Shown here in pieces: positions 1 through 63,466 of a stretch of 64,000 bases of DNA. The notes under the pieces are model-generated. The model was given only the letters and a program-made list of their open reading frames with translations. It was not told the origin of the DNA and made no database searches. Both the position numbers and the translations under genes were made by a program. This DNA is from a virus. The first letter of the stretch is position 1. Every line of letters starts with the position of its first letter. Location: UHGV virus genome UHGV-0178594; one strand, given 5' to 3'.

Positions 1-600
1 GATATTGGCGCTGCCATCAAATGACACTCCGCCGATTGTGCGTGCCGTCTGAAGTTTCGTTGCGGTTGCAGCATTACCTGTTGTGTTCTGGTTACCGGCA
101 ATGTTCACACCCGGCAGGTTGATATTGGCGCTGCCATCAAATGACACTCCGCCGATTGTGCGTGCCGTCTGAAGTTTCGTTGCGGTTGCAGCATTGCCGG
201 TAGTGCTCTGATTACCTGTTTTATTCACGCCTGGCAGGTCGATATTGGCGCTGCCATCAAATGACACTCCGCCGATTGTGCGTGCCGTCTGAAGTTTCGT
301 TGCGGTTGCAGCATTACCTGTTGTGTTCTGGTTACCGGCAATGTTCACACCCGGCAGGTTGATATTGGCGCTGCCATCAAATGACACTCCGCCGATTGTG
401 CGTGCCGTCTGAAGTTTCGTTGCGGTTGCAGCATTGCCGGTAGTGCTCTGATTACCTGTTTTATTCACGCCTGGCAGGTCGATATTGGCGCTGCCATCAA
501 ATGACACCCCGCCGATTGTGCGTGCCGTCTTGAGCTTTGTCGCAGTATCTGCGTTTCCCGTCAAATTACCTGTAATGCCACCACTAACTGTTACCCCATT
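1..600. repeat. Tandem coding repeats inside tail-fibre gene: 1-240 identical to 241-480, each made of two diverged 120-bp units; diverged copies continue to ~960
   Basis: Direct comparison of sequence lines 1-240 and 241-480 shows identity; unit starts GATATTGGCGCTGCCATCAAATGACAC. Confidence 0.9.
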
Positions 601-2262
601 ACCGATCGACACCAACCCAGTTCTTAAATTTATAGCAAAAGGTCTTAATGGGCCGATGTCACCATTTTCTCCCTCACCTTCATTTGTCGGGATAAGATGC
701 AGAGATTCCTCGGATCTCCTGAAGATAAGGCCAAAGTCCTGGTTAAATATTCGAAGGGCATTTATTGTGCCAATTTTTAGCTGCCCCCCCATTGTGTCGC
801 CAGAACGCTGAACTGCGTTACCAGCTTGAGAAGCAATATCCGTTAAGCCAAGATCTTCAGGGGTCAGAGTAATATCTGCCGACCCATCAAATGCCACACC
901 GTTAATCTTTCTGGCTGTTTTTAATTTCGTCGCAGTATCGGCGTTCCCGGTCAGCGTACCAGTGATCCCCGCGCTGAAAGTCTGGCGTGCACTCCAGGTA
1001 TTAGCTGTGCTCAACAGGGGGAGCTTTTCTCCGCTGGTTCCGAGTTCTCTTAAACCAAGGTATTGGATAACAGCCAGTGTGCTTGTTTTAGCAAGAATAT
1101 CGCGACCGACTGACGTTAAATCAGTCTGGGCTACAGTGTCTGTTCCGGTAAAGTACGGTAATTTATTTGCCCCCGTCGCCAGGCCAGCGAGCGCGGTTAA
1201 GGTTGCGTCGAGAGGCTGCTTACCTGCCAGGGCATTTGTCATTGTAGTCGCAAAGTTCGGGTCATTGCCCAGCGCCGCAGCAAGCTCATTAAGAGTATCA
1301 AGAGCTTCTGGTGATGAGCCGACCAATGCAGAAATAGCGGCACGAACATAAGCGGTTGTTGCAATCTGAGTGTTGTTCGTACCTTGTGACGCCGTAGGAG
1401 CTGTTGGAACCCCCGTAAATGCCGGGCTTAATAACGGCGCTTTAAGAGCTAAAGCATCATTAATCGTCTGGCTAAACTGGGGATCATTGTTTATTGCATC
1501 TGCAATTTTTTTCAGCGTATCCAACGCTGAAGGAGAACCATCAATAAGGGCGGTTATAGCGGCCTGAACAAAGGCAGCGTTTGCGATTTGTGTACTGTTT
1601 GTACCTTGTTCCGGAGTTGGAGATGTAGGGATACCTATAAATTCCGGGCTATCAACCGGAGCTTTAAGTTTATTTAACGTGCTGATAGCAAGGGGGGTTG
1701 CAGCTTTATATTCTTCGTCACTATCCAAAGCACTGGAGAACTCAACACCTACAGCACGATTAGCGCGATATTTAGTGCTAATCATATCTGCGGTAACGGC
1801 TTGAGCATTGTCAGGCACGATCACTCGGCATAGCTCAATCTGGTTAGATGCTATGCCCTCATCAACGAGAGCTATAATTCTCGCAGCACTAATATCCGAT
1901 GAACTATCTACCTGGCTGGTTTTCACTCCATGTTCGTAATTAGCTTCAAGAACGATGATTGTCGTTACACCTGCTTCTACAGGAACAACAACATCACTGA
2001 CTTGCTGCACGGATATCTGACATTTACCCACGTCAACTGAAGCCGCCCCTCTTCCCTCTGTTTTCTCGGATGTAATCCGCACAAACAGGCCATCCCCTGG
2101 CACCGGTTCAAACCCACAGTACACACCGGGCAGAACGATATTTTTCATCTTCCTGTTTAGAGCTTCGGTGCTATACAGCTCAAAGTATTGCATGTCTGCA
2201 ATTAGTGGAGCGGAAATGTCCGAAGATAAGGTGACAATGTTCTTTACTTTATCTGCGCACAT
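1..2262 (-). CDS. Tail fibre protein, partial (C-terminal end runs off the window); ~40-aa phage tail-fibre repeats
   Basis: Minus-strand ATG at 2262-2260; no complete minus ORF is listed here although the reverse translation reads through repeats of the type ..TGNADTATKLKTARTIGGVSFDGSANI..; plus-strand ORFs at 485-1567 are antisense artefacts. Confidence 0.6.
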   Translation of the reverse strand, partial: MCADKVKNIVTLSSDISAPLIADMQYFELYSTEALNRKMKNIVLPGVYCGFEPVPGDGLFVRITSEKTEGRGAASVDVGKCQISVQQVSDVVVPVEAGVTTIIVLEANYEHGVKTSQVDSSSDISAARIIALVDEGIASNQIELCRVIVPDNAQAVTADMISTKYRANRAVGVEFSSALDSDEEYKAATPLAISTLNKLKAPVDSPEFIGIPTSPTPEQGTNSTQIANAAFVQAAITALIDGSPSALDTLKKIADAINNDPQFSQTINDALALKAPLLSPAFTGVPTAPTASQGTNNTQIATTAYVRAAISALVGSSPEALDTLNELAAALGNDPNFATTMTNALAGKQPLDATLTALAGLATGANKLPYFTGTDTVAQTDLTSVGRDILAKTSTLAVIQYLGLRELGTSGEKLPLLSTANTWSARQTFSAGITGTLTGNADTATKLKTARKINGVAFDGSADITLTPEDLGLTDIASQAGNAVQRSGDTMGGQLKIGTINALRIFNQDFGLIFRRSEESLHLIPTNEGEGENGDIGPLRPFAINLRTGLVSIGNGVTVSGGITGNLTGNADTATKLKTARTIGGVSFDGSANIDLPGVNKTGNQSTTGNAATATKLQTARTIGGVSFDGSANINLPGVNIAGNQNTTGNAATATKLQTARTIGGVSFDGSANIDLPGVNKTGNQSTTGNAATATKLQTARTIGGVSFDGSANINLPGVNIAGNQNTTGNAATATKLQTARTIGGVSFDGSANI

Positions 2263-2264
2263 AA

Positions 2265-2711
2265 TTATCCCTCGACCTGTTCAATGGTCATGAGCAAGCT
2301 GTATCGCTTACCTTTGAATAAGGTGTCCTGTTGAGTACAAACAACCCCAAAAGCCTGATCCTCTGCATCTACGAGAACCAGCGTATTGAAATCGTAAGGT
2401 GTATCGTCCGGCATCGTTTCTTGTGGAAAAGCGGCATTAATCGTAATGACACCATCGAGGCTGGAAAGAATGAGATTGGATTCAGCAAAATGCTGTGCAT
2501 CACTTAACTTGAAGTCGAGCGGAATATCAGAAATAGTCCAGCCACCAGCACTATTTACCGTCACAAGATCGGACTTGCACCAATAAGCCTTTGTCATAAC
2601 AAAACGCTCACCTCTGCCGATTGCAGACTCTGCACGGCGAGAGTAGTAGTAAGAAAGGAGTTGCGCCTTGTAAATACTGGAATCGCTTTGGGATTTTAAA
2701 GTTTCAGCCAT
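2265..2711 (-). CDS. Tail-associated protein immediately upstream of tail-fibre gene
   Basis: 148-aa ORF in the baseplate/tail-fibre operon; no recognised motif. Confidence 0.3.
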   Translation of the reverse strand: MAETLKSQSDSSIYKAQLLSYYYSRRAESAIGRGERFVMTKAYWCKSDLVTVNSAGGWTISDIPLDFKLSDAQHFAESNLILSSLDGVITINAAFPQETMPDDTPYDFNTLVLVDAEDQAFGVVCTQQDTLFKGKRYSLLMTIEQVEG

Positions 2712-2827
2712 ACGAACATAGCCCCTTTAACAAGCAATAAATCGAAGGGCAGTATGTTCAGTTTGTGATTTCCAGTGGTTTTTTGTTTTGAGAAATGGCC
2801 CCACCCAGGTTGGCGGGGCCTGGTTTG

Positions 2828-3670
2828 CTAAGGTGCAAAATTATAATCCAGCGCCCAGGCGTCGAGCGGGAGTTCATCGAGATGAAGCACTCTTTCCGTC
2901 GTCCGGTCTGGCCTTCCTGCGAACTGGATGCCGCCTATTTGAATGATCGTATCGCTAATAGATAGCTCATCGACCATCTCTTGCGTCGTGTACACCCCCT
3001 CAATAAAGGACACTTCCGCAGATAAGCAATTCAGGATCTCCGCCATTTCCGGCAATGTTGCGCTTAACTGGAAAGAAACACCATCAAACACGATATGCAA
3101 TGGCAATAGCGGCGCTATAACCGTATCAAAATCAGCAAGTAGCTTCTGTACAGCAACGTCTCGGTCATCGCTATCATAAGCTCGATACAGCTTATTTTGG
3201 TTGACGACAACCAGCCCTCTGGATGTCAGGAAAAACTCACCATATTGTGCCTGAGCGGTCGGTATTTCATTTGCGGTCGCGAAGAATGAACCATAGGGAT
3301 GTTTTTCTGTATCGACAGGCGCATACAAAGGTTCCCATGAGACGGGGATTGTGCCAAATTCACGCCAGAACGTTTGCTCTATCGGCCTTACTGTTCCTTT
3401 GAAGTGCACCTCATCCAGTCGTTGAGCTAATAGCATTGGCCTGCGTGTTTTGTCCGTTTCTGTGATAACAAAGAAACGACCATATTCAGCAATGCGAGTG
3501 TCCATATCCTCCCTTGCCATTGTGAAAAACGATTTACGGTTGCTTATTCGCGTGAGAATAGGTTCAACCGATTCATTCCACACGTCCTGAATCGTATCAA
3601 CAAAGGCGGCCCACAATTTAGAATCCTGTTTAAATTGCGTCAGACGCTCTTTTAGCCAGTTATTCTGCAT
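2828..3670 (-). CDS. Baseplate/tail protein (gpI-like position)
   Basis: 280-aa ORF; gene order W-like, J-like, this ORF, tail fibre resembles P2-type baseplate wedge modules. Confidence 0.3.
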   Translation of the reverse strand: MQNNWLKERLTQFKQDSKLWAAFVDTIQDVWNESVEPILTRISNRKSFFTMAREDMDTRIAEYGRFFVITETDKTRRPMLLAQRLDEVHFKGTVRPIEQTFWREFGTIPVSWEPLYAPVDTEKHPYGSFFATANEIPTAQAQYGEFFLTSRGLVVVNQNKLYRAYDSDDRDVAVQKLLADFDTVIAPLLPLHIVFDGVSFQLSATLPEMAEILNCLSAEVSFIEGVYTTQEMVDELSISDTIIQIGGIQFAGRPDRTTERVLHLDELPLDAWALDYNFAP

Positions 3671-3679
3671 TGTGACCTC

Positions 3680-5110
3680 TTACGGATAGGTTATGCTGAA
3701 CGTTGATGATTCCACGTCCAGATAAACAAAATCATTAAAGTACACAGCTTCTTTCATGTTCTGCGTAGCCACGTCATAAGACAGGAACATATCCAGCGAT
3801 TCGATTACTCGCCAGATATCTTTTACTTTGACCTGTGCATAACATTGCTGTGAATCGTCATCACTCTGCAATAGCTGGCTAAATGACATGGAGTCTTTAC
3901 CGAAGTTCTCCTCCAGTGCCGCTTTAATTGCAGTTAGCGCGTCATCCACCAGCACACTCTTTTTTACGATACCGGTAAATTTGATGTTGAACGGCTGTTC
4001 ATTGGTGGCGACGTATTCGAACTTCTTATTCAGCTCATTAGGGATACTCTCAAGGGCTGATAATATCTCTGTTTTCAGAGCTTCCTGTGTTACGCCGGGC
4101 TTGTGCCCACAAAAGAAAATTTTGTTGATATTACGCACATCAAAGCCCGTGATTTTCTCCTGTAGCGCCTCCCCCCACACGTTAAGCCATGACGTGCCAC
4201 TGACCACGTTCTGAATGAACTGTCGGTAATCACCGCCCCAAACAACCTGCTCATCGTAGGCCACATAATACTGCGCCCTGTTTCGGGTTTCCTCGGTAGT
4301 TTCCATGCCACCACCGCCAGAAATGATCGAATCGGTTTTTACTTCCAGTGATTCGACATACCCGGAGATGTTCCCTGCTGGTTCAAGTTTCTGGCCTTCA
4401 GCCAGCGTGTAATCACCGAGGCTTGCCATAATATCAATGCGTACCTGACTCCCTGCCGCTGGCATCATCCCCATTGATCCATCACCGAAGCGCACGCCGA
4501 TCTGTTCTGTCGGCTTATAAACCAACACATAATGTTTACTGTTATCCCTGGACATGCGGAACAGGGGGTTATGTGTCCATTTTTCCTCGACACCATTAGT
4601 TATCACGACAACTTCCAGGCTGGCGACTTCTGCTGTTAACTCACGGGAAAGTAACAGCGTCAAGAATGGTGTTTCTTGCACCACGTCGAACGTTACGCTG
4701 ACTGCTTCATGCTGTTTTACTTCTATGCCGGGTACTGTTTCACCAGCAGGGATAACAACACTACTGCTGGTTGCAATTGGTGTCTGGTCACTTGTCAGTA
4801 ATTCAGCCCCTCCGGGTAGCGTAATATCCCTGTCGGTTTTGTTGGTGATGGAAACAGTGCCGTATGACGCATCGACCAAACGACCGACATAGCCACGGTC
4901 TTCCGCTGCCGCGAGAATACTTGCTCTACGCGTCGCGGTGGAAATGAATCCTTCTGTAAGTGCACGGCTTGCAAATGTACGCGCAATATAAACAATCTGC
5001 GCGCCCAAAACGGACTGCATTTGAATAAACTGGCTGTTTACAAATCGCGCCCACCAGGGGTTTTCGTTCAGCTTGGCATTAAACTTGTCCAGTAATTCGG
5101 TAATACTCAC
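3680..5110 (-). CDS. Baseplate protein (gpJ-like position)
   Basis: 476-aa ORF between a W-sized ORF and the tail-fibre block; call is by position and size only. Confidence 0.35.
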   Translation of the reverse strand: MSITELLDKFNAKLNENPWWARFVNSQFIQMQSVLGAQIVYIARTFASRALTEGFISTATRRASILAAAEDRGYVGRLVDASYGTVSITNKTDRDITLPGGAELLTSDQTPIATSSSVVIPAGETVPGIEVKQHEAVSVTFDVVQETPFLTLLLSRELTAEVASLEVVVITNGVEEKWTHNPLFRMSRDNSKHYVLVYKPTEQIGVRFGDGSMGMMPAAGSQVRIDIMASLGDYTLAEGQKLEPAGNISGYVESLEVKTDSIISGGGGMETTEETRNRAQYYVAYDEQVVWGGDYRQFIQNVVSGTSWLNVWGEALQEKITGFDVRNINKIFFCGHKPGVTQEALKTEILSALESIPNELNKKFEYVATNEQPFNIKFTGIVKKSVLVDDALTAIKAALEENFGKDSMSFSQLLQSDDDSQQCYAQVKVKDIWRVIESLDMFLSYDVATQNMKEAVYFNDFVYLDVESSTFSITYP

Positions 5111-56051: not shown

Positions 56052-56702
56052 TCACTCCACAACAAACCAGTCACAGGCCAGTAAATCATCCACAGACGGC
56101 AACCAAACGCTGTCCATATTTTGTGCATCTTTCAATACAAAATGGTCACCATAAGGAACGTGAATGCCGTGTAAATTGACGCTTCCAGCGAGAACTAACC
56201 AGCAGAATTGCTTTTCGCCTTTCCACTCGCGTCGGGCAACTTTCTTGCCTTCCTTCAACCACATTAGCGCATCAGAGAAGTCGGCTGCTTCAAGGTCGAT
56301 TTCTTCTTGCTGGGTGGTGATGCCACCAGCAGAAATAGTTACGCTCCCAGTAAGATTAATCATTACGCCGTTGTCATCCGTAATGATGACCGTGGTTCCA
56401 TTTTTGGAGGCGTCGTTAACCAGGCCATAGCATTCCTCAAATGGTTTCTCCGGGGCATAGAACAGATAACCGTTTTCATAAACGATCAGATACCCGCCAG
56501 TTTTTGGTCGGTGTTTTTGTAAAAACATTGCGTCAACACAAACTGTTGCCCCTTTTGGTTCAACGAGTTCGATGCAGCCCCAAAGTGGGGCATCAGTTAC
56601 TCCGAAAATAACAACATTTTTGATTTTCGATGCACTAACGTTTTTGTGAGCTTTGTATTTGGGAAGGAACTTAAAAAGCTCTTTCGTTGGCATGTTATTC
56701 AT
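56052..56702 (-). CDS. Protein with C-terminal DUF2829-like domain
   Basis: ..FSDALMWLKEGKKVARREWKG..WLP..DLLACDWFV.. resembles the DUF2829 phage domain (from memory). Confidence 0.4.
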   Translation of the reverse strand: MNNMPTKELFKFLPKYKAHKNVSASKIKNVVIFGVTDAPLWGCIELVEPKGATVCVDAMFLQKHRPKTGGYLIVYENGYLFYAPEKPFEECYGLVNDASKNGTTVIITDDNGVMINLTGSVTISAGGITTQQEEIDLEAADFSDALMWLKEGKKVARREWKGEKQFCWLVLAGSVNLHGIHVPYGDHFVLKDAQNMDSVWLPSVDDLLACDWFVVE

Positions 56703-56716
56703 AGCCTTTCCTCTAC

Positions 56717-57211
56717 TTAAAACTTTGCGTACTGAAGCGGTGTACGCTTGATTTCAATGCGGTCTTCCGATGTGCTACCAAAGCCACCAGCACCTCGCTC
56801 TGTTTCATCGAGTTCATCAACTTCTACCAGCGATACCGGTTCAACACGCTCAAAAATGCCTTGCATGACCGCCATTCCTGGCTTGAGGCAAACGCCTTCA
56901 CCACCGGGATCTGTAATCAGTTTTGCTTTGATTTCACCGCGATAATCGGAGTCGATAATTCCTACGCAGTTAGCCAGGCGCGTATGCTTTTTGCAGCCCA
57001 ATCCGGAACGAGGATAAAGTTTCAGACACCAGCCAGGAGGGATCGCCATAGCGAGGCCGGTATGCACCCACCAGCTTGAGGAAATAGCGCCGTTGCTATT
57101 GATACCTGGCGTTATTTCAACAGCAATAAAATCCATCGCCGCCGATCCGGCGGTGGCGTAAACGGGGAGTCTTGCCGCCGGATGAAGGCGTTTCACTTTC
57201 ACGTTAATCAT
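56717..57211 (-). CDS. dut: dUTP pyrophosphatase
   Basis: dUTPase motifs ..ATAGSAAMDF.., ..PRSGLG.., ..GIIDSDYRGE.., ..GGFGSTS.. Confidence 0.85.
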   Translation of the reverse strand: MINVKVKRLHPAARLPVYATAGSAAMDFIAVEITPGINSNGAISSSWWVHTGLAMAIPPGWCLKLYPRSGLGCKKHTRLANCVGIIDSDYRGEIKAKLITDPGGEGVCLKPGMAVMQGIFERVEPVSLVEVDELDETERGAGGFGSTSEDRIEIKRTPLQYAKF

Positions 57212-57696
57212 TGCTTTTTAGCTCTCCGGGTAAATGTATAAATCCGGCGTTTGATATGCGGAGCGGTCGGAACGGAGACGCAGGTATTCTCGATAACACC
57301 TTGTTCCTCCAGCGATCGCACAGCACGCAAGAACTGTGATGCATCACCACCGCCAGACAGCCAGAATTTGCGGGCATAGACGCTGCCATTACGGATAATT
57401 TCTGCGATCACCCGCGCTTGCGTCTGGCTTTCTCGATAGCCAAAGAGTTCTCTTGCCTCTCCTTGTGGGATAGCCAACTGATAGCCTTTCCCGCTACGGT
57501 GACGGACAAAACCGTGAGCAATGAGGTTCTTCAGCTCATTTCGGGTGCGGATACACCCGTACTCAGGGAACTGTGTGTTGATATCACCAGGCTTATGCCA
57601 TTCATCAGGACTATCAGCCAGGAGGGACAGAAGTTTCCCTGACAGCTCAGGATTAGTGGTTGGATAGCAGTTCAGGGATGGGTAGTAAGTTTTCAT
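57208..57696 (-). CDS. Hypothetical protein
   Basis: 162-aa ORF with 4-bp overlaps on both sides. Confidence 0.3.
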   Translation of the reverse strand: MKTYYPSLNCYPTTNPELSGKLLSLLADSPDEWHKPGDINTQFPEYGCIRTRNELKNLIAHGFVRHRSGKGYQLAIPQGEARELFGYRESQTQARVIAEIIRNGSVYARKFWLSGGGDASQFLRAVRSLEEQGVIENTCVSVPTAPHIKRRIYTFTRRAKKQ

Positions 57697-58037
57697 TTGC
57701 GCCCCCTTGCCGGATAGCGCCCGGCATTTGCATCAGGAGCAATGAAGCCGCTGGTGGGGCGAGTGAAAACATGGTTAATTTTCTCGGTCATAGCGCGATA
57801 ATTTTCCTGATAGTGGGCCAGGAGTTTTTCAGCAGCAATGACGGTTACTTTCCGGACGTAGCGTTCAGCTTCCTCCAGATTTCGCCAGTTTTTTTCGAGG
57901 GTAAACACGGGAACGGCATCAAGTCCGGTCATAACACCGAACACCACGACCGCCTGGTCGCGCTTAACGCCCGCAGTGAAGGTTATGGTGTAACCGTCAA
58001 CAGTGAAGCGTTTTGATTCCGTAATACGATTGTGCAA
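57693..58037 (-). CDS. Hypothetical protein downstream of the recombinase gene (cra-like position)
   Basis: 114-aa ORF. Confidence 0.3.
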   Translation of the reverse strand: MHNRITESKRFTVDGYTITFTAGVKRDQAVVVFGVMTGLDAVPVFTLEKNWRNLEEAERYVRKVTVIAAEKLLAHYQENYRAMTEKINHVFTRPTSGFIAPDANAGRYPARGRK

Positions 58038-58094
58038 AGTACCCTCCGCAATAGGCGAGGGTACTTTACATTAAAATGCACTGTCTAAAAAGAT

Positions 58095-58117
58095 TGTTAG
58101 AAAATTAATTTATGAAT
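58095..58117. promoter_or_regulatory. Operator-like element TGTTAGAAAATTAATTTATGAAT overlapping the dre stop codon
   Basis: 19 of 23 positions identical, in one run, to the element at 39196. Confidence 0.4.
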
Positions 58118-59138
58118 CCATCAGGCGACTATTTGCACCAACGGATGCCCCGCTACGGCGCAAATATCGCATAAGTGTTTCGGGCTTTTTCCATGTGCCT
58201 TCCTGCATGATCTCGACCATTGACACCTGTTTCTCAGCCATATCAATTGCCGCACCAACACGCGCACTATGGCCTGTCCACGTCCGGTATCTTCCTTTGT
58301 TCGGCGTGGCATCTCGTTTGTTCAGCAACCCCCAGGCATCGCTGAATATTTTCTCCATTGCAGGTGCAGTAAGGGGAGTTGTCGTGATTCTGGCCTTATT
58401 ACTGCGGTGTATTGGCGGGAATAGCACCGCGTCCGGATGTTGACGAAGTCCGGACACCTCCAGCCAGTCGTTCAGTACGGCGGTAGTGCAACGAGAAAGC
58501 ACCTTATCAAGTCCGGCGGCGGTCGTGATGGTCTTCGTGTGCGAAATATGCAGCGTTACAGTGTCACCTGTTTGGTCCAGATCTCCGACGCGGATGCGCG
58601 AGATTTCTGACATACGCATCAGGGTATTGTATGCCACGAAGAGAAACGCCCGATTGCGCAGGTCCACCAGCCGCTCGGAACGGGACAGCAATACGTCGAG
58701 CAATTTCAGATCATCCCACCGCAACGGTATAGCCTGGCCTGTTCGCTCGCCTTTTTCCGTTGCCGCTTCGCGCCGGATGCGCCGCATGGCCAGAGACACA
58801 CTTTTATCGTCCGACAGCGGCGGGAGGCCACATTGCGAAAGCAGCATGTTAAGCATGGCATAGTGCTTATCAATGGTGGTCGAAGCCAGATCGGCCTCAT
58901 GCAACTGGAGAAGATACTCGCGGGCCATTTCCGACGTAATCGGGAACCAGGGGCGCTGGCGCGAGTTACACCACCGCGCCCAGGAATGAAACACCAGACG
59001 GAGATCACGAAGTGTATTTGGGGCATAAGCTCCCTGGTCGTTCATGAACTGCATAAAGTTTTTTGCAGCTTCCTGGTATTCGGTGCCAATATCGCGCAGA
59101 AAACCACCAGAACCGCCGGAGATAACTAGTTCACCCAT
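58110..59138 (-). CDS. dre: Cre-family tyrosine recombinase (Dre-type)
   Basis: Collinear with remembered Cre (..WFP..DVR.YLL.LQ..GLA..TI..H...LNML.., ..RNLAF..AYNTL.R..EI.RIRV.D.., ..WSGHSARVGAA.DMA..GVS..EIMQ.G.W..); adjacent exact rox site. Confidence 0.85.
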   Translation of the reverse strand: MGELVISGGSGGFLRDIGTEYQEAAKNFMQFMNDQGAYAPNTLRDLRLVFHSWARWCNSRQRPWFPITSEMAREYLLQLHEADLASTTIDKHYAMLNMLLSQCGLPPLSDDKSVSLAMRRIRREAATEKGERTGQAIPLRWDDLKLLDVLLSRSERLVDLRNRAFLFVAYNTLMRMSEISRIRVGDLDQTGDTVTLHISHTKTITTAAGLDKVLSRCTTAVLNDWLEVSGLRQHPDAVLFPPIHRSNKARITTTPLTAPAMEKIFSDAWGLLNKRDATPNKGRYRTWTGHSARVGAAIDMAEKQVSMVEIMQEGTWKKPETLMRYLRRSGASVGANSRLMDS

Positions 59139-59290
59139 GAAACTATTAAACCTCTATATACAGATAACGCTACGTGAAAAATAGAAAACTGACAGGGTAG
59201 TTATAAGTTAATTTTCAAAATTCAAGCCTTTGATTCGAGGCATGATTTTTCATCCTTGTCAATACTGCCAGTTTACTGGAGATTATAGCC

Positions 59291-59322
59291 TAACTTTAAA
59301 TAATGCCAATTATTTAAAGTTA
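59291..59322. other. rox: rox recombination site TAACTTTAAATAATGCCAATTATTTAAAGTTA (14-bp inverted arms, 4-bp spacer)
   Basis: Perfect inverted arms read directly; sequence matches the rox site as I remember it from the Dre/rox system. Confidence 0.85.
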
Positions 59323-59403
59323 GAAATCGGAACTTTTTTCCCAAAAAAACACCGACCAGATCACTTCGCAAATCCGTCAGCCATGCGGTAGCCGCTCCTG
59401 GTT

Positions 59404-59506
59404 ACATTTTCTAATAGGAACAATCAAAAAAAAGCGGTTTTATCCTTTACTCACCTTGTTATTCAGCATAAATTTGTCACAGGACTTTTATGTTAGAAAA
59501 CTAAAT
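59404..59506. promoter_or_regulatory. Two operator-like sites (ACATTTTCTAATAGG at 59404; ATGTTAGAAAACTAAAT at 59490) upstream of the c1-position gene
   Basis: Half-site variants of the recurring motif. Confidence 0.4.
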
Positions 59507-59518
59507 CGAGTAGGAATA

Positions 59519-60556
59519 ATGAGTAAGAAGTCGATCGAGAATGAGTACAAACGGTTCCTGCAAACCGCTGAACGGTGGAAAGAGCTGGTGGTCGCAAACT
59601 CTGTTTTCCATGATACCAGTTATGTTGGCGAGGAATTTCGCCATGTTGCATTAACACATGATCCGGCTGTATTAGAAGAAGCTGAAAAATGCATAGCCGA
59701 ATGGAAAGCCTTTGTTGATCTGTGTCGCAAGGATGATGACAAAGCCTCAAACATTGTTGAGTCGGTTTATTTACCGATCCCATTCATTGTTGAGGATACT
59801 AATCAGAGTACGCACATCGTTATGCAAAGCGCAACCACAACGAGAACATTTACGCGCGAAGACCTGCTGAAAAAATACGATAAAACTATAAAGAAAAGCA
59901 TGAAAAACAGGATATTTTCACAGGTTGTCGGTGCGCTTGAAGAAGAACGCAGATTCTTCGCCGCTGAACGTGAGGGCGAGGTATACCGCGCAAGAAAAGA
60001 AGGTTATACCGATGTGGTGATTACCACCAATATTGAGGGCAACAATGGACTTTCACGCTTCAGAGTGGGTACGCACGGTGCGCTGATCTTTGCAAAAAAA
60101 GCAAACACAGAGATTCCCGTTGTTAACAACGTTGGTGAGCGCCGCACCCTTACCATTTACACTGGCATTAAACCGCTTCCGTGCGGACTTCTCGGCGAAT
60201 TTGACCTTTATCGGGTTCGTGATCTGGAAAAGCAGCAGCCAAGCTACGTCGTGAAGTCATATATCCTGAGAAACATTGATATCCGCAATCAGAGTTTAAA
60301 AAACAAATCAGATAAAATGCTGGCCGAAGCCGATCCAGCCATACACCAGATCGTAAGCCGGAAAATTCAAGAGGCTAAAGATGCAATGGCAAGGCTGGAT
60401 AAAATGGACCTGGAACTACTGGAAGTTATGATTGCCTCCGGCGATGACCTGACAGGCATCCGCCTTACTGAAGCCAGGAAAAAATACGGTAAAAGCGTTG
60501 AAGAACGCTATGGGTACACATTCACACAAACGATGTACGCGGCAAAACTCTGGTAA
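59519..60556 (+). CDS. Immunity repressor candidate by position (c1 locus between rox and pacB); family not recognised
   Basis: 345 aa from ATG 59519 (track lists a TTG-initiated 59456 start); convergent with pacB as c1 is in P1; longer than P1 C1, so identity unproven. Confidence 0.35.
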   Translation: MSKKSIENEYKRFLQTAERWKELVVANSVFHDTSYVGEEFRHVALTHDPAVLEEAEKCIAEWKAFVDLCRKDDDKASNIVESVYLPIPFIVEDTNQSTHIVMQSATTTRTFTREDLLKKYDKTIKKSMKNRIFSQVVGALEEERRFFAAEREGEVYRARKEGYTDVVITTNIEGNNGLSRFRVGTHGALIFAKKANTEIPVVNNVGERRTLTIYTGIKPLPCGLLGEFDLYRVRDLEKQQPSYVVKSYILRNIDIRNQSLKNKSDKMLAEADPAIHQIVSRKIQEAKDAMARLDKMDLELLEVMIASGDDLTGIRLTEARKKYGKSVEERYGYTFTQTMYAAKLW

Positions 60557-60593: not shown

Positions 60594-62102
60594 TTAAATG
60601 TCAATATCAGGAATATCCACTTCTGCCAACACCTGATCGCGGAATGTTGCGAGTTCTGCGCCAATGTCTTCATTAGCAGGCACGTAATCCACCAGCATAG
60701 TGAAGCAGTAGGTATCCCATCTGTCCGGTGACTTGATGTTTAACTTCTGCCGCATGTGCTCCTTGCGCATCATCGCTACCTTCCCTTCTTCGTTAAGCAT
60801 ATACGGGATTTTTGATGCCTGATCTGCGGTTTTGGGGTCACTATCGATACGCATACGCCCGGATTTAATGGCATCCCCTGCCATAATATTGGCGTAAGCA
60901 CGCTGATTGACAAAGCGTTCTCTGTCTCTTAGCGCAAACATAGGCTTACCCCAACGGATGCGAACGGGATTAGCACCACGGCGGACAAGCTGCGCACACG
61001 TATCTGAACCAAAGCCATCAGCATCCACAGCAATGGTGATGTTCGGGTATTTATCAGGAGTGCATTCGTTATAGATAAAGTCGGCAAAAGCCAACGGGTC
61101 CATAGTGCCTGGCATCTCCAGTATCTTAAAGTTCACAACGCGTCGTTTCTCACGATAACCGGATACTTTGCATATATTGAGCACCGATTTATCGCGACCA
61201 TTACCGACGTCAGCGGTCGCTACCCAGCCCCAATCTTTCTCCAGCAACACTTTACGCCGTGCGGCGCGGTCGCACTCATCACGACCAAGCAAATACCCGT
61301 TAATTGCACGCGGGAACTGGCCCAGCACCTTAACCATGTACTCCAGCGAATCCCTGCCGCCGTACTCCAGCAATTTCTCACGAATAAAGCTCGGTTCAAC
61401 GAATGGTGATTCTTCAGAGTTAAGGACTATTGCCGTCCAGACACCTTCCGGATTGCCTTCTGCCTTTGCCCTTGAATGGTGAGATTCATAAAAGTAACCG
61501 CTTGGACGCGTAGGCTGGGAAAGCATGAGCATACGGTTATCTTTCTGCGTTAACGCCCCCGTCATGACGTTAATCGCCTTATCGGATATGCCCGATGCTT
61601 CATCAAGAATTAGCAGTAAATGCTCCGCGTGCTCCCCCGCCAGTGCCTCTTCGTTACCGAGTCGATAACCTTTACAGAGCACTTCCCATATCCCTTTACG
61701 GGAACGCTCATAAAACATGGTGTCAGACAGGACAAAATAGGTCTGTAACCAGCCGTGGCGCTTAACAGCATTCGCCCAAAACTGTTTCACGTATTTGAAT
61801 ACGCCTGTTTTTACCTGGCCTATTTTGTTCGCAACAATAATGACGCGGGCGTCGGGGAACAGGATCATAAAAATTAGTAGCAACATCGCGGTAAGGGACG
61901 ACTTACCCGTTCCGTGTCCGGACGTAACGGTCGTCCTGCTTCCCGTCTCCTGCACTGACTGAATGATCTGCTGCTGCTGGTGGGAGGGGAACATCCCAAA
62001 AATATCGACAACCGCCTGGGTAAAGTTGTATCGATACCTGATAACCATATCGCGCCAACGTGGATCACTGGTGACGCACTTAATCTTACGACCACCAGCC
62101 AT
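60594..62102 (-). CDS. Terminase large subunit (PacB-like)
   Basis: P-loop ..TSGHGTGKSS.. near the N-terminus, 502 aa, immediately downstream of the small-subunit gene. Confidence 0.6.
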   Translation of the reverse strand: MAGGRKIKCVTSDPRWRDMVIRYRYNFTQAVVDIFGMFPSHQQQQIIQSVQETGSRTTVTSGHGTGKSSLTAMLLLIFMILFPDARVIIVANKIGQVKTGVFKYVKQFWANAVKRHGWLQTYFVLSDTMFYERSRKGIWEVLCKGYRLGNEEALAGEHAEHLLLILDEASGISDKAINVMTGALTQKDNRMLMLSQPTRPSGYFYESHHSRAKAEGNPEGVWTAIVLNSEESPFVEPSFIREKLLEYGGRDSLEYMVKVLGQFPRAINGYLLGRDECDRAARRKVLLEKDWGWVATADVGNGRDKSVLNICKVSGYREKRRVVNFKILEMPGTMDPLAFADFIYNECTPDKYPNITIAVDADGFGSDTCAQLVRRGANPVRIRWGKPMFALRDRERFVNQRAYANIMAGDAIKSGRMRIDSDPKTADQASKIPYMLNEEGKVAMMRKEHMRQKLNIKSPDRWDTYCFTMLVDYVPANEDIGAELATFRDQVLAEVDIPDIDI

Positions 62103-63466
62103 TAGTCATCCTCCGGCTGGTCTATCGCAATCTCGTCATCTACAGCATCAAAACCGGTATCCCCCGCGTCATAATCACCGTAGATATCAGCCGTGGCGTA
62201 AGGGTCTATATTCAGGTCTTCATCATTGGCCTCAAATTCACCGGCTTTACGTTCTCCGTTCCGGTCGTAATCCCCCATCCCAAGCCTATCAACGATTTTC
62301 GCTACTTCAGCCCGGCGTTGTGCAAGCCATTGTGGGAGTCCAGCTTGTTGCTCGGCAAACTGCTTCGCCTCTTTATCCAGTTGCTCATCATCAACATCGT
62401 TAACGTCAGAAACCGGAGGCTCCAGAAGTGAGATCGCTTTTGCCGCTCGTGCCGCCAGGATAGCCGGGACACTGACGCCCTGCCGCTCGATATATTCAGC
62501 AACACCTATATCATCCAGCTCCTCGCGCTCACGCATACGTATAGCGGCGGCGATAACCCTGGCGGCGCGTGCGTCAGCGCCAATGCGATACTCAATCTCC
62601 TTGCCACGCTGCTCGGCTTGTAGGCGGGCAATCGCCAGTTTTTCTCTGGCCTCAGCCTCCCTGAATGCCTGCTGACGCGCGCCCTGCGCAAGTTTTTCAT
62701 CCCCCTGGCGTAGCTTCTGCTCGTTCTGATAGATGGCTGCCAGCCTGGTGATAAAGTCATTCATGTAGTAGGCCGCATCGCTGATCAGTCCGAGAAGACG
62801 CTGCCCTGGGTGCATCCCCTCTGGCTGTGTATCACCGAGGGCGTCAATCTCTTCCTGTAGTCGCTCCGCTTCCTGGTCAACGATAGCCTGATACTGAATT
62901 GCTCGTTCCTGCGCCATCTGAATCGCAAGTCGTAAATGTTCAGTCGCGCCGTTCTTCATCATCTCACGGGCGACGTTGGTGGCAGGCAAAGTGGTGCTTT
63001 GAGCTGATGAATCAGGGATCATTTGCAATGATCCCTTGTTTCGTTGGGCTTTATCGCTGCTTTTAGGGATCATTTCTCCCATTTCATCACAAAATGATCC
63101 CTTCACATCCTTGTGTATCTTGTTGTTATTACTTGGCTTTTCTTTGTGATCCGCATTTTGTTTTTGCGGCATGGCGCGGAACCGTCCACCAGCCAAAGAT
63201 TTGTCAGTTTTTGTAAATTCTGTGCTTTTATTAGCCTTTTTTTGCTCTTTTTTTGAGCCGGTGGCGCTGCTTTTTGCGCGCTGTTTTGTACTTTTCCCGG
63301 TAGCCTTAGCTTTCGCCTTAACCTCATTTTTTTTCATATTGAGATGCTTTCTGGCGGTGTTAAAGCTGAGGTCATGCTGCTCGCAATATTCTTTTATGGT
63401 GATCCCGGTTTCTTCTCTTAACTCCAGGAACTTAGCTCGATGCGCTTCCCAGTTAATTAACGTCAT
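62102..63466 (-). CDS. Terminase small subunit / pac-recognition protein (PacA-like)
   Basis: N-terminal HTH-like ..ITIKEYCEQHDLSFNTARKHL.., basic linker, GATC-rich pac-like cluster inside the 5' part of the gene. Confidence 0.5.
   Translation of the reverse strand: MTLINWEAHRAKFLELREETGITIKEYCEQHDLSFNTARKHLNMKKNEVKAKAKATGKSTKQRAKSSATGSKKEQKKANKSTEFTKTDKSLAGGRFRAMPQKQNADHKEKPSNNNKIHKDVKGSFCDEMGEMIPKSSDKAQRNKGSLQMIPDSSAQSTTLPATNVAREMMKNGATEHLRLAIQMAQERAIQYQAIVDQEAERLQEEIDALGDTQPEGMHPGQRLLGLISDAAYYMNDFITRLAAIYQNEQKLRQGDEKLAQGARQQAFREAEAREKLAIARLQAEQRGKEIEYRIGADARAARVIAAAIRMREREELDDIGVAEYIERQGVSVPAILAARAAKAISLLEPPVSDVNDVDDEQLDKEAKQFAEQQAGLPQWLAQRRAEVAKIVDRLGMGDYDRNGERKAGEFEANDEDLNIDPYATADIYGDYDAGDTGFDAVDDEIAIDQPEDD
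63014..63102. other. pac-like cluster: four GGGATCATT / AATGATCCC elements with GATC sites at 63017, 63030, 63068, 63096
   Basis: Read directly; resembles the Dam-sensitive hexamer organisation of the P1 pac site. Confidence 0.4.

What the first reader, a model, noticed from the sequence alone, without database searches (positions are those of the whole stretch)
58110..59322. Exact rox site with adjacent Dre-type recombinase: element is D6-like rather than P1 itself
The 32-bp site matches rox, not loxP (which has 13-bp arms and an 8-bp spacer), and the neighbouring recombinase is Cre-like but clearly diverged. This places the window in a P1-family plasmid prophage of the D6 lineage and explains the P1-like but rearranged gene order.
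Basis: partly seen in the sequence, partly recalled or inferred. Interest (0 to 1): 0.45.

Follow-up and report, generated by a model that had tools for sequence, protein, structure and literature searches.

The report
Dre/rox recombination module, D6-like phage-plasmid

Summary
Confirmed and already explained. The sequence at 59291-59322 is the published wild-type rox site, 32/32 bases, present once, with none expected by chance. The ORF at 58110-59138 (minus strand, 342 aa) is a tyrosine recombinase. It is 93.6% identical to D6 Dre and only about 41% identical to P1 Cre, and every other phage recombinase found is a Cre at about 42%. All catalytic residues are kept, and dN/dS against Dre is 0.045. 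loxP is absent. The window is collinear with the D6 genome at 72-93% nucleotide identity, covering 77% of the window. It is 98-99.8% identical to unnamed ~90-kb E. coli and E. marmotae plasmids. It is therefore a D6-like phage-plasmid of a sister sub-lineage, neither D6 nor P1. The most likely function, inferred from P1 Cre-lox, is resolving plasmid multimers and circularising infecting DNA.

Three things were noticed beyond the finding. First, the best sigma-70 promoter match in the window (TTGGCA-16-TATAAT) has its -35 in the rox spacer and points at dre. It is conserved in 34 of 38 related loci, which suggests Dre may repress its own promoter; this is untested. Second, this copy has a private P69S change at an otherwise invariant proline. 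Third, relatives carry natural rox spacer variants.

The parts
59291..59322 (+). rox recombination site: left arm 59291-59304, spacer GCCA 59305-59308, right arm 59309-59322
   Evidence: Exact single match with 0 expected by chance. Identical to published roxP and to the D6 rox feature.
58110..59138 (-). dre orthologue: a 342-aa Cre-family tyrosine recombinase
   Evidence: Pfam PF00589 and PF02899. 93.6% aa to D6 Dre and 40.8% to Cre. R175, E178, K202, H290, R293, W316 and Y325 are kept. dN/dS against Dre is 0.045. The best solved relatives are Cre structures, E about 1e-70.
58932..58934 (-). Codon 69 of dre: private P69S change (CCG->TCG)
   Evidence: Pro in all 23 other distinct family proteins examined and in Cre (P68). 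The 99.7%-identical plasmid CP104667 differs from the window only here.
59282..59309 (-). Candidate dre promoter overlapping rox: -35 TTGGCA at 59309..59304 (spans the rox spacer), 16-nt spacer, -10 TATAAT at 59287..59282
   Evidence: An 11/12 consensus match. It is the only match of at least 11/12 in the 64-kb window, against 0.6 expected. The same hexamers and geometry occur in 34 of 38 related loci, and TATAAT is kept in a 70%-identical homologue. Promoter function is inferred, not shown.
59150..59208 (-). Conserved block in the dre leader, ending at the GAGG ribosome-binding site; role unknown
   Evidence: Near-invariant across 32 distinct upstream sequences, including the 70% homologue. 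No Rfam family matched and there is no folding signal, z = 0.58.
59519..60556 (+). D6-type c1 prophage repressor gene, divergent from dre across rox
   Evidence: 345 aa, 80% identical to D6 C1. Same position as in D6.
60594..62102 (-). pacB, terminase large subunit
   Evidence: 502 aa, 92% identical to D6 PacB.
62102..63466 (-). pacA-like terminase subunit ORF
   Evidence: A 454-aa ORF at the position and length of D6 pacA, within the block collinear with D6.
56717..58037 (-). Genes downstream of dre: orf2-like (57693-58037), orf3-like (57208-57696) and dut (56717-57211), in the same order as in D6
   Evidence: ORFs, D6 annotation, collinear blastn block 56641-59306 at 83% identity.

Best explanation
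This is the Dre/rox site-specific recombination module of a D6-like plasmid prophage (phage-plasmid) of Escherichia. The 342-aa Cre-family tyrosine recombinase binds the two 14-bp arms of rox. Two rox sites and four protomers form a synapse, and Tyr325 cleaves and rejoins strands around the 4-bp asymmetric core through a Holliday intermediate, with no accessory proteins needed. In the element's life cycle the module most likely converts plasmid multimers into monomers, so that the low-copy prophage segregates faithfully. It probably also circularises terminally redundant DNA after infection, as Cre-lox does for P1. What is shown here: the site identity, orthology to Dre, intact catalytic residues, purifying selection, the D6-type genomic context and the absence of loxP. 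What is inferred: catalytic activity of this allele, its specificity, and its biological roles.
For: rox is exact and unique in the window. The recombinase is 93.6% aa identical to Dre, with no closer family. The catalytic residues correspond to those reported for Dre (Arg175, His290, Arg293, Trp316, Tyr325) and all are present. Against D6 dre, dS is 0.69 and dN 0.031, so the gene has stayed under strong purifying selection while the 32-bp site did not change at all. Of the 22 residues that differ from Dre, 21 also occur in other natural recombinases that sit next to a canonical rox. None of the 22 is one of the seven aligned catalytic positions. The local arrangement pacA-pacB-c1-rox-dre-orf2-orf3-dut is the same as in D6. 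The rox-to-ATG distance is fixed at 152 nt in 37 of 38 related loci. The relatives are ~90-kb circular, non-mobilizable plasmids with a RepB-type replicon. Published work on a D6-like plasmid assigns multimer resolution to this recombinase and site (PMC6799933). Dre recombines rox and not loxP or vox (PMC3553980; PMC4777119).
Against: No activity data exist for this allele. It carries a private P69S substitution at a proline that is invariant in the other 23 distinct family proteins and in Cre; the effect is unknown. The cluster of TGATCR hexamers that I recall as marking the P1 pac site was not seen in the window's pacA, so the packaging geometry behind the circularisation role is assumed rather than demonstrated. 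The window holds only one rox, as expected for a monomeric plasmid, so no recombination product can be observed in the sequence.
Confidence: 0.9

Rival explanations
1. The module is present, but this copy of the recombinase is impaired or has altered properties, because of the private P69S change or the 22 differences from Dre. In that case rox would be conserved for another reason, such as its overlap with a promoter.
For: P69S lies at an otherwise invariant proline. The rox spacer and flank also match a strong promoter consensus, which could constrain the sequence independently.
Against: The ORF is intact and full length, with all catalytic residues. dN/dS is 0.045. The other 21 differences recur in relatives paired with canonical rox. 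Sister plasmids that differ only at residue 69 have the same rox. A promoter would constrain only about 12 of the 32 bases, yet all 32 are unchanged at dS 0.69.
Confidence: 0.07
2. The sequence is laboratory Dre/rox vector material or contamination rather than a natural element.
For: Dre and rox are widely used engineering parts.
Against: The recombinase differs from the laboratory Dre at 22 residues and 13% of nucleotides. rox sits in its native flank, 152 nt from the gene. The whole 64 kb is collinear with a phage-plasmid genome and 98-99.8% identical to natural isolates' plasmids.
Confidence: 0.01
3. The element is P1 or P7 proper with a Cre/loxP system that was misread.
For: Many genes are P1 homologues (D6 annotation).
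Against: There is no loxP within 3 mismatches. The recombinase is 41% identical to Cre. No P1 C1 operator consensus was found. The gene order follows D6.
Confidence: 0.01

Closest known systems
Dre recombinase / rox site of Escherichia phage D6 (Sauer & McDermott 2004; records AY753669, MF356679)
   Same: Identical 32-bp site. Same 342-aa length, with 93.6% aa identity and the same catalytic residues. Same 152-nt spacing and orientation, and the same flanking genes (c1, pacB, pacA on one side; orf2, orf3, dut on the other).
   Different: 22 amino-acid and about 13% nucleotide differences in dre. The rox-to-c1 intergenic stretch 59326-59425 cannot be aligned. C1 is only 80% identical. The genome as a whole is 72-93% identical over 77% of the window. 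This copy also has a private P69S.
Cre / loxP of phage P1
   Same: Same fold family and catalytic residues; the best solved-structure match is Cre, E about 1e-70. Same place in the immC region, between c1 and the recombinase gene. The presumed roles are the same, by established knowledge of P1.
   Different: 41% aa identity. loxP has 13-bp arms and an 8-bp spacer and is absent here. Published work reports Cre and Dre as heterospecific. In P1 the annotated cre promoters lie downstream of lox and a cra ORF intervenes, whereas here the best promoter match overlaps the site.
Other Cre-like tool recombinases (Vika/vox, VCre/VloxP, SCre/SloxP, Nigri/nox, Panto/pox)
   Same: Simple two-arm sites, tyrosine recombinase, no accessory factors.
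   Different: Far more distant: Vika is reported as 23% identical to Dre. None can be closer than Dre's 93.6%.
Other natural Dre-family clades in plasmids and viral contigs
   Same: Same module and geometry. The arms are identical or differ by one base.
   Different: A third clade, about 79% nt and about 87% aa identical (81 PLSDB records at 60-80% nt identity), often has spacer ACTA. A 70%-identical homologue has spacer GCTA, and one contig has CCCC.
Tn3 / gamma-delta resolvase at res (analogy for the novel reading only)
   Same: A recombination site overlaps the recombinase gene's promoter, so site occupancy represses the gene. This rests on established knowledge, not on a test here.
   Different: That is a serine recombinase with a multi-subsite res. 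Here the overlap is only a sequence prediction.

Membership tests
Dre/rox system | A 32-bp site with 14-bp inverted arms and a 4-bp asymmetric spacer, identical to TAACTTTAAATAATGCCAATTATTTAAAGTTA | tested here: met
   Exact match at 59291-59322; published sequence and anatomy.
Dre/rox system | The recombinase is an orthologue of D6 Dre, closer to Dre than to any other characterised recombinase | tested here: met
   93.6% aa to Dre; the next phage hits are Cre at about 42%.
Dre/rox system | Catalytic Arg175, His290, Arg293, Trp316 and Tyr325, plus the Glu and Lys equivalents of Cre E176 and K201 | tested here: met
   All present at the aligned positions; the residue list comes from PMC4777119.
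Dre/rox system | The site lies immediately upstream of the recombinase gene, between c1 and dre | tested here: met
   152 nt from the ATG, as in D6 and 36 other loci.
Dre/rox system | Catalyses rox x rox recombination without accessory proteins and does not act on loxP | not testable with these tools
   Requires an excision or integration assay with this allele.
D6-like plasmid prophage (P1 supercluster) | Genome collinear with D6, with D6-type immC genes | tested here: met
   Collinear blastn blocks D6 36252->91159->1->4699 at 72-93% identity with 77% coverage. C1 80% and PacB 92% aa.
D6-like plasmid prophage (P1 supercluster) | Maintained as a circular ~90-kb plasmid | tested here: inconclusive
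   The window is a 64-kb piece, so its own topology is unknown. Relatives 98-99.8% identical are circular 89.7-94.2-kb plasmids.
D6-like plasmid prophage (P1 supercluster) | Produces infectious myovirus particles | not testable with these tools
   Requires induction and plaque assays.
Phage P1 / Cre-loxP | A 34-bp loxP site and a Cre recombinase | tested here: not met
   No loxP within 3 mismatches; 40.8% identity to Cre.

The most novel reading that the evidence does not exclude
rox may also be part of the dre promoter. On the dre-sense strand, the last base of the upstream arm, the TGGC spacer and the first base of the downstream arm spell a -35 hexamer, TTGGCA. A perfect TATAAT sits 16 nt downstream, 3 nt outside the site. 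Dre bound to rox would then block RNA polymerase and repress its own synthesis. Natural spacer variants (ACTA, GCTA, CCCC) would change crossover compatibility and promoter strength together. I found no description of this arrangement for Cre-family recombinases in the searchable literature, but the two primary D6 papers could not be read.
Probability: 0.3. Interest if true: 0.4.

Novelty: new member of a known kind. Interest (0 to 1): 0.15.

Why it matters
It matters little as a discovery. Dre/rox and D6-like phage-plasmids are well described, and near-identical plasmids are already public, where the gene is annotated only as 'tyrosine-type recombinase/integrase'.

There are three practical points:
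- It classifies the window firmly as a D6-type phage-plasmid, not P1.
- It shows that rox is held invariant across recombinase alleles whose genes have diverged to dS of about 0.7-1.4. These alleles form a natural panel of Dre variants (94%, 88% and 70% identical) and of rox spacer variants that could be mined for orthogonal tools.
- The promoter overlapping rox, if real, would give a simple autoregulatory circuit. It would also warn that rox with its native flank may act as a promoter in bacterial constructs.

Tried and rejected
- **P1-type pac site.** I searched for the cluster of TGATCR hexamers (a P1 pac feature recalled from memory) in pacA. Only one site falls in 62102-63466 and there is no enrichment in the window, so no P1-type pac could be located.
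- **P1 C1 operator.** The consensus ATTGCTCTAATAAATTT gave no match with up to 3 mismatches.
- **RNA element in the conserved leader.** There was no Rfam hit for 58900-59650 at E <= 1 and no thermodynamic signal, z = 0.58.
- **A second promoter.** TTGACA at 59262-59257 is invariant in the 9 plasmid and D6 sequences, but its only partner is TCGAAT at 18 nt, which lacks the key A2, and it is not conserved in the 70% homologue. I left it unexplained.
- **Genome-contig scan with a relaxed rox pattern.** It returned only 7 loci, all from Pelagibacteraceae, Clostridia, Erysipelotrichaceae or Bacillota assemblies; none has a Dre-like gene beside the site, so I take them as chance matches.
- **Primary D6 papers.** Sauer & McDermott 2004 and Gilcrease & Casjens 2018 are not held in the library. 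I therefore could not check whether the promoter overlap or the D6 pac site is already described.
- **Laboratory-vector origin.** Considered and rejected; see the rival explanations.

Full report
**Observation.** The 32-mer TAACTTTAAATAATGCCAATTATTTAAAGTTA is at window 59291-59322 on the + strand. It occurs once, nothing else lies within 3 mismatches, and none of 100 shuffles gave a match. It equals the wild-type roxP printed in PMC4777119, which also gives the anatomy of 14-bp inverted repeats and a 4-bp asymmetric spacer. It also equals the 'rox' misc_recomb feature of D6 record AY753669. The adjacent ORF at 58110-59138 (minus strand, 342 aa) matches Pfam Phage_integrase (E 1e-16) and the N-terminal SAM-like domain.

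**What the recombinase is.**
- BLASTP against D6 Dre gives 320/342 identities (93.6%) with no gaps.
- Nucleotide identity of the gene is 86.9%, and global identity to P1 Cre is 40.8%.
- A tblastn of the protein against 50,697 phage records finds only D6 above 90%. Every other substantial hit is a Cre of P1, P7, phiW39, SJ46 or RCS47 at about 42%. The remainder are a Cronobacter phage JK004 protein at 40% and Vibrio and Microcystis phage proteins at 23-24%.
- No Dre structure is in the PDB; the best solved relatives are Cre chains, E about 1e-70.
- Aligned to Cre, the residues R175, E178, K202, H290, R293, W316 and Y325 are all present. They match the Dre active-site list in PMC4777119.
- Nei-Gojobori counts against D6 dre give dS 0.69, dN 0.031 and dN/dS 0.045. 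The gene has diverged a long way under strong purifying selection while the 32-bp site has not changed.
- Of the 22 residue differences from Dre, none is one of the seven aligned catalytic positions. Sixteen of them fall in residues 2-102. From my recollection of Cre-loxP contacts, not tested here, none coincides with the main base-contacting residues.
- Twenty-one of the 22 differences also occur in other natural family members that sit next to a canonical rox.
- The exception is S69. All 23 other distinct family proteins, and Cre, have proline there. The 99.7%-identical plasmid CP104667 differs from the window only at this codon, CCG against TCG. The consequence is unknown.

**Context.**
- blastn of the whole window against the D6 genome (MF356679) gives collinear blocks running from D6 36252 to 91159 and on through 1 to 4699, at 72-93% identity and covering 77% of the window.
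- The local order pacA, pacB, c1, rox, dre, orf2, orf3, dut is the D6 order. C1 is 80% and PacB 92% identical in protein.
- The D6 annotation shows many P1 homologues in a different order from P1.
- loxP is absent and no P1 C1 operator consensus is present.
- Against PLSDB and complete E. coli genomes, this region is 97-99.6% identical in 7 plasmid records and 17 E. coli genome records, about 86% identical in the D6-proper group (105 PLSDB records in the 80-90% band), and about 79% identical in a third group (81 records in the 60-80% band).
- Larger pieces of the window are 98-99.8% identical to ~90-kb circular, non-mobilizable plasmids of E. coli and E. marmotae with a RepB-type replicon.
- The element is thus a D6-like phage-plasmid of a sister sub-lineage. 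D6-like plasmid prophages are an established group (PMC6799933).

**How it most likely works.**
- By orthology with Dre, which has been shown experimentally to recombine rox and not loxP or vox, the enzyme binds the two arms of rox. It then exchanges strands around the central core through Tyr325.
- By analogy with P1 Cre-lox (established knowledge), and as assumed for a D6-like plasmid in PMC6799933, the module resolves plasmid multimers and can circularise terminally redundant infecting DNA.
- These functional steps are inferred; nothing in a single monomeric sequence can show them.
- I could not locate a P1-type pac hexamer cluster in pacA, so the packaging geometry is assumed.

**Beyond the finding: a promoter overlapping rox.**
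- The promoter scan gave an 11/12 sigma-70 match on the minus strand. The -35 TTGGCA is at 59309-59304 (one arm base, the spacer TGGC, one arm base). After 16 nt comes the -10 TATAAT at 59287-59282, just outside rox and reading into dre.
- It is the only match of at least 11/12 in the 64-kb window, against 0.6 expected in first-order Markov simulations of the window.
- I collected 37 related loci: the D6 record, 7 PLSDB plasmids, and 29 IMG/VR contigs found with a relaxed rox pattern.
- Counting the window as well, 34 of 38 loci have TTGGCA plus TATAAT in the same geometry. The rox-to-ATG distance is 152 nt in 37 loci and 153 nt in the 70% homologue.
- In that homologue, only 70% identical to Dre (L019), the arms and TATAAT are kept while the neighbouring bases differ. 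A per-column conservation profile shows the same pattern.
- This suggests that Dre occupancy of rox could repress dre. It is a sequence-based inference, and I found no mention of it in the searchable literature. The primary D6 papers were not available.
- A further conserved leader block (about 59208-59150) has no Rfam match and no folding signal.

**Natural variation.**
- Relatives carry rox variants: an arm change, T24C, in 11 of 38 loci.
- Spacer ACTA occurs in third-clade plasmids, GCTA in the 70% homologue and CCCC in one contig.
- Published mutagenesis indicates that changes in the central 4 bp have only a mild effect on compatibility with wild-type rox, whereas the bases flanking the spacer matter more.
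- Some third-clade dre-rox modules sit between IS26, IS5 or IS903B copies in large IncFIB resistance plasmids.

**Verdict.** The system is known, so this is a new allele of a known kind and interest is low. The only part with some novelty potential is the promoter overlap, which needs an experiment.

Noticed in passing
window 59282-59309 (minus strand): The best sigma-70 promoter match in the whole window (TTGGCA-16-TATAAT, 11/12) has its -35 across the rox spacer and its -10 3 nt outside rox, pointing at dre. It is conserved in 34 of 38 related loci, which suggests possible autoregulation by Dre.
   Followed up: partly
window 58932-58934 (codon 69 of dre): A private P69S change (CCG->TCG) at a proline that is invariant in 23 other distinct Dre-family proteins and in Cre. 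The closest plasmid differs from the window only here.
   Followed up: partly
window 59150-59208 (minus strand): A strongly conserved block in the dre 5' leader, kept even in a 70%-identical homologue. It has no Rfam hit and no folding signal, and its role is unknown.
   Followed up: partly
window 59257-59262 (minus strand): A perfect TTGACA hexamer, invariant in the 9 aligned plasmid and D6 sequences but not in the 70% homologue. Its only -10 partner is a poor TCGAAT at 18 nt.
   Followed up: partly
L009 2792-2823, L010 2789-2820, L019 3706-3737, L032 12405-12436: Natural rox variants in relatives: spacer ACTA (third clade), GCTA (70% homologue) and CCCC (one contig). The arm change T24C is common. 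These are possible natural heterotypic rox sites.
   Followed up: partly
L010 (NZ_CP060135.1) and L011 (NZ_MG825383.1): Third-clade dre-rox modules are found outside phage-plasmids, bracketed by IS26, IS5 or IS903B next to mph(A), in 113-192-kb IncFIB plasmids.
   Followed up: no
window 59326-59425: The stretch between rox and the c1 promoter region cannot be aligned with D6, and megablast alignments to other clades stop 4-19 bp past rox. Homology resumes at about 59425.
   Followed up: partly
whole window; pacA 62102-63466: No P1 C1-operator consensus within 3 mismatches, and no cluster of TGATCR hexamers of the kind I recall for the P1 pac site in pacA. The operators and pac site of this lineage are not identifiable by P1 rules.
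   Followed up: partly
E. coli complete genomes: Five of the 158 matching places for the dre-rox region are on chromosomes rather than plasmids. Whether these are integrated copies or assembly artefacts was not examined.
   Followed up: no
L047 6241-6272 and L052 3733-3764 (Pelagibacteraceae contigs): rox-like AT-rich palindromes lie about 2 kb from a tyrosine recombinase 22% identical to the window protein. They are probably dif-like or chance matches.
   Followed up: no
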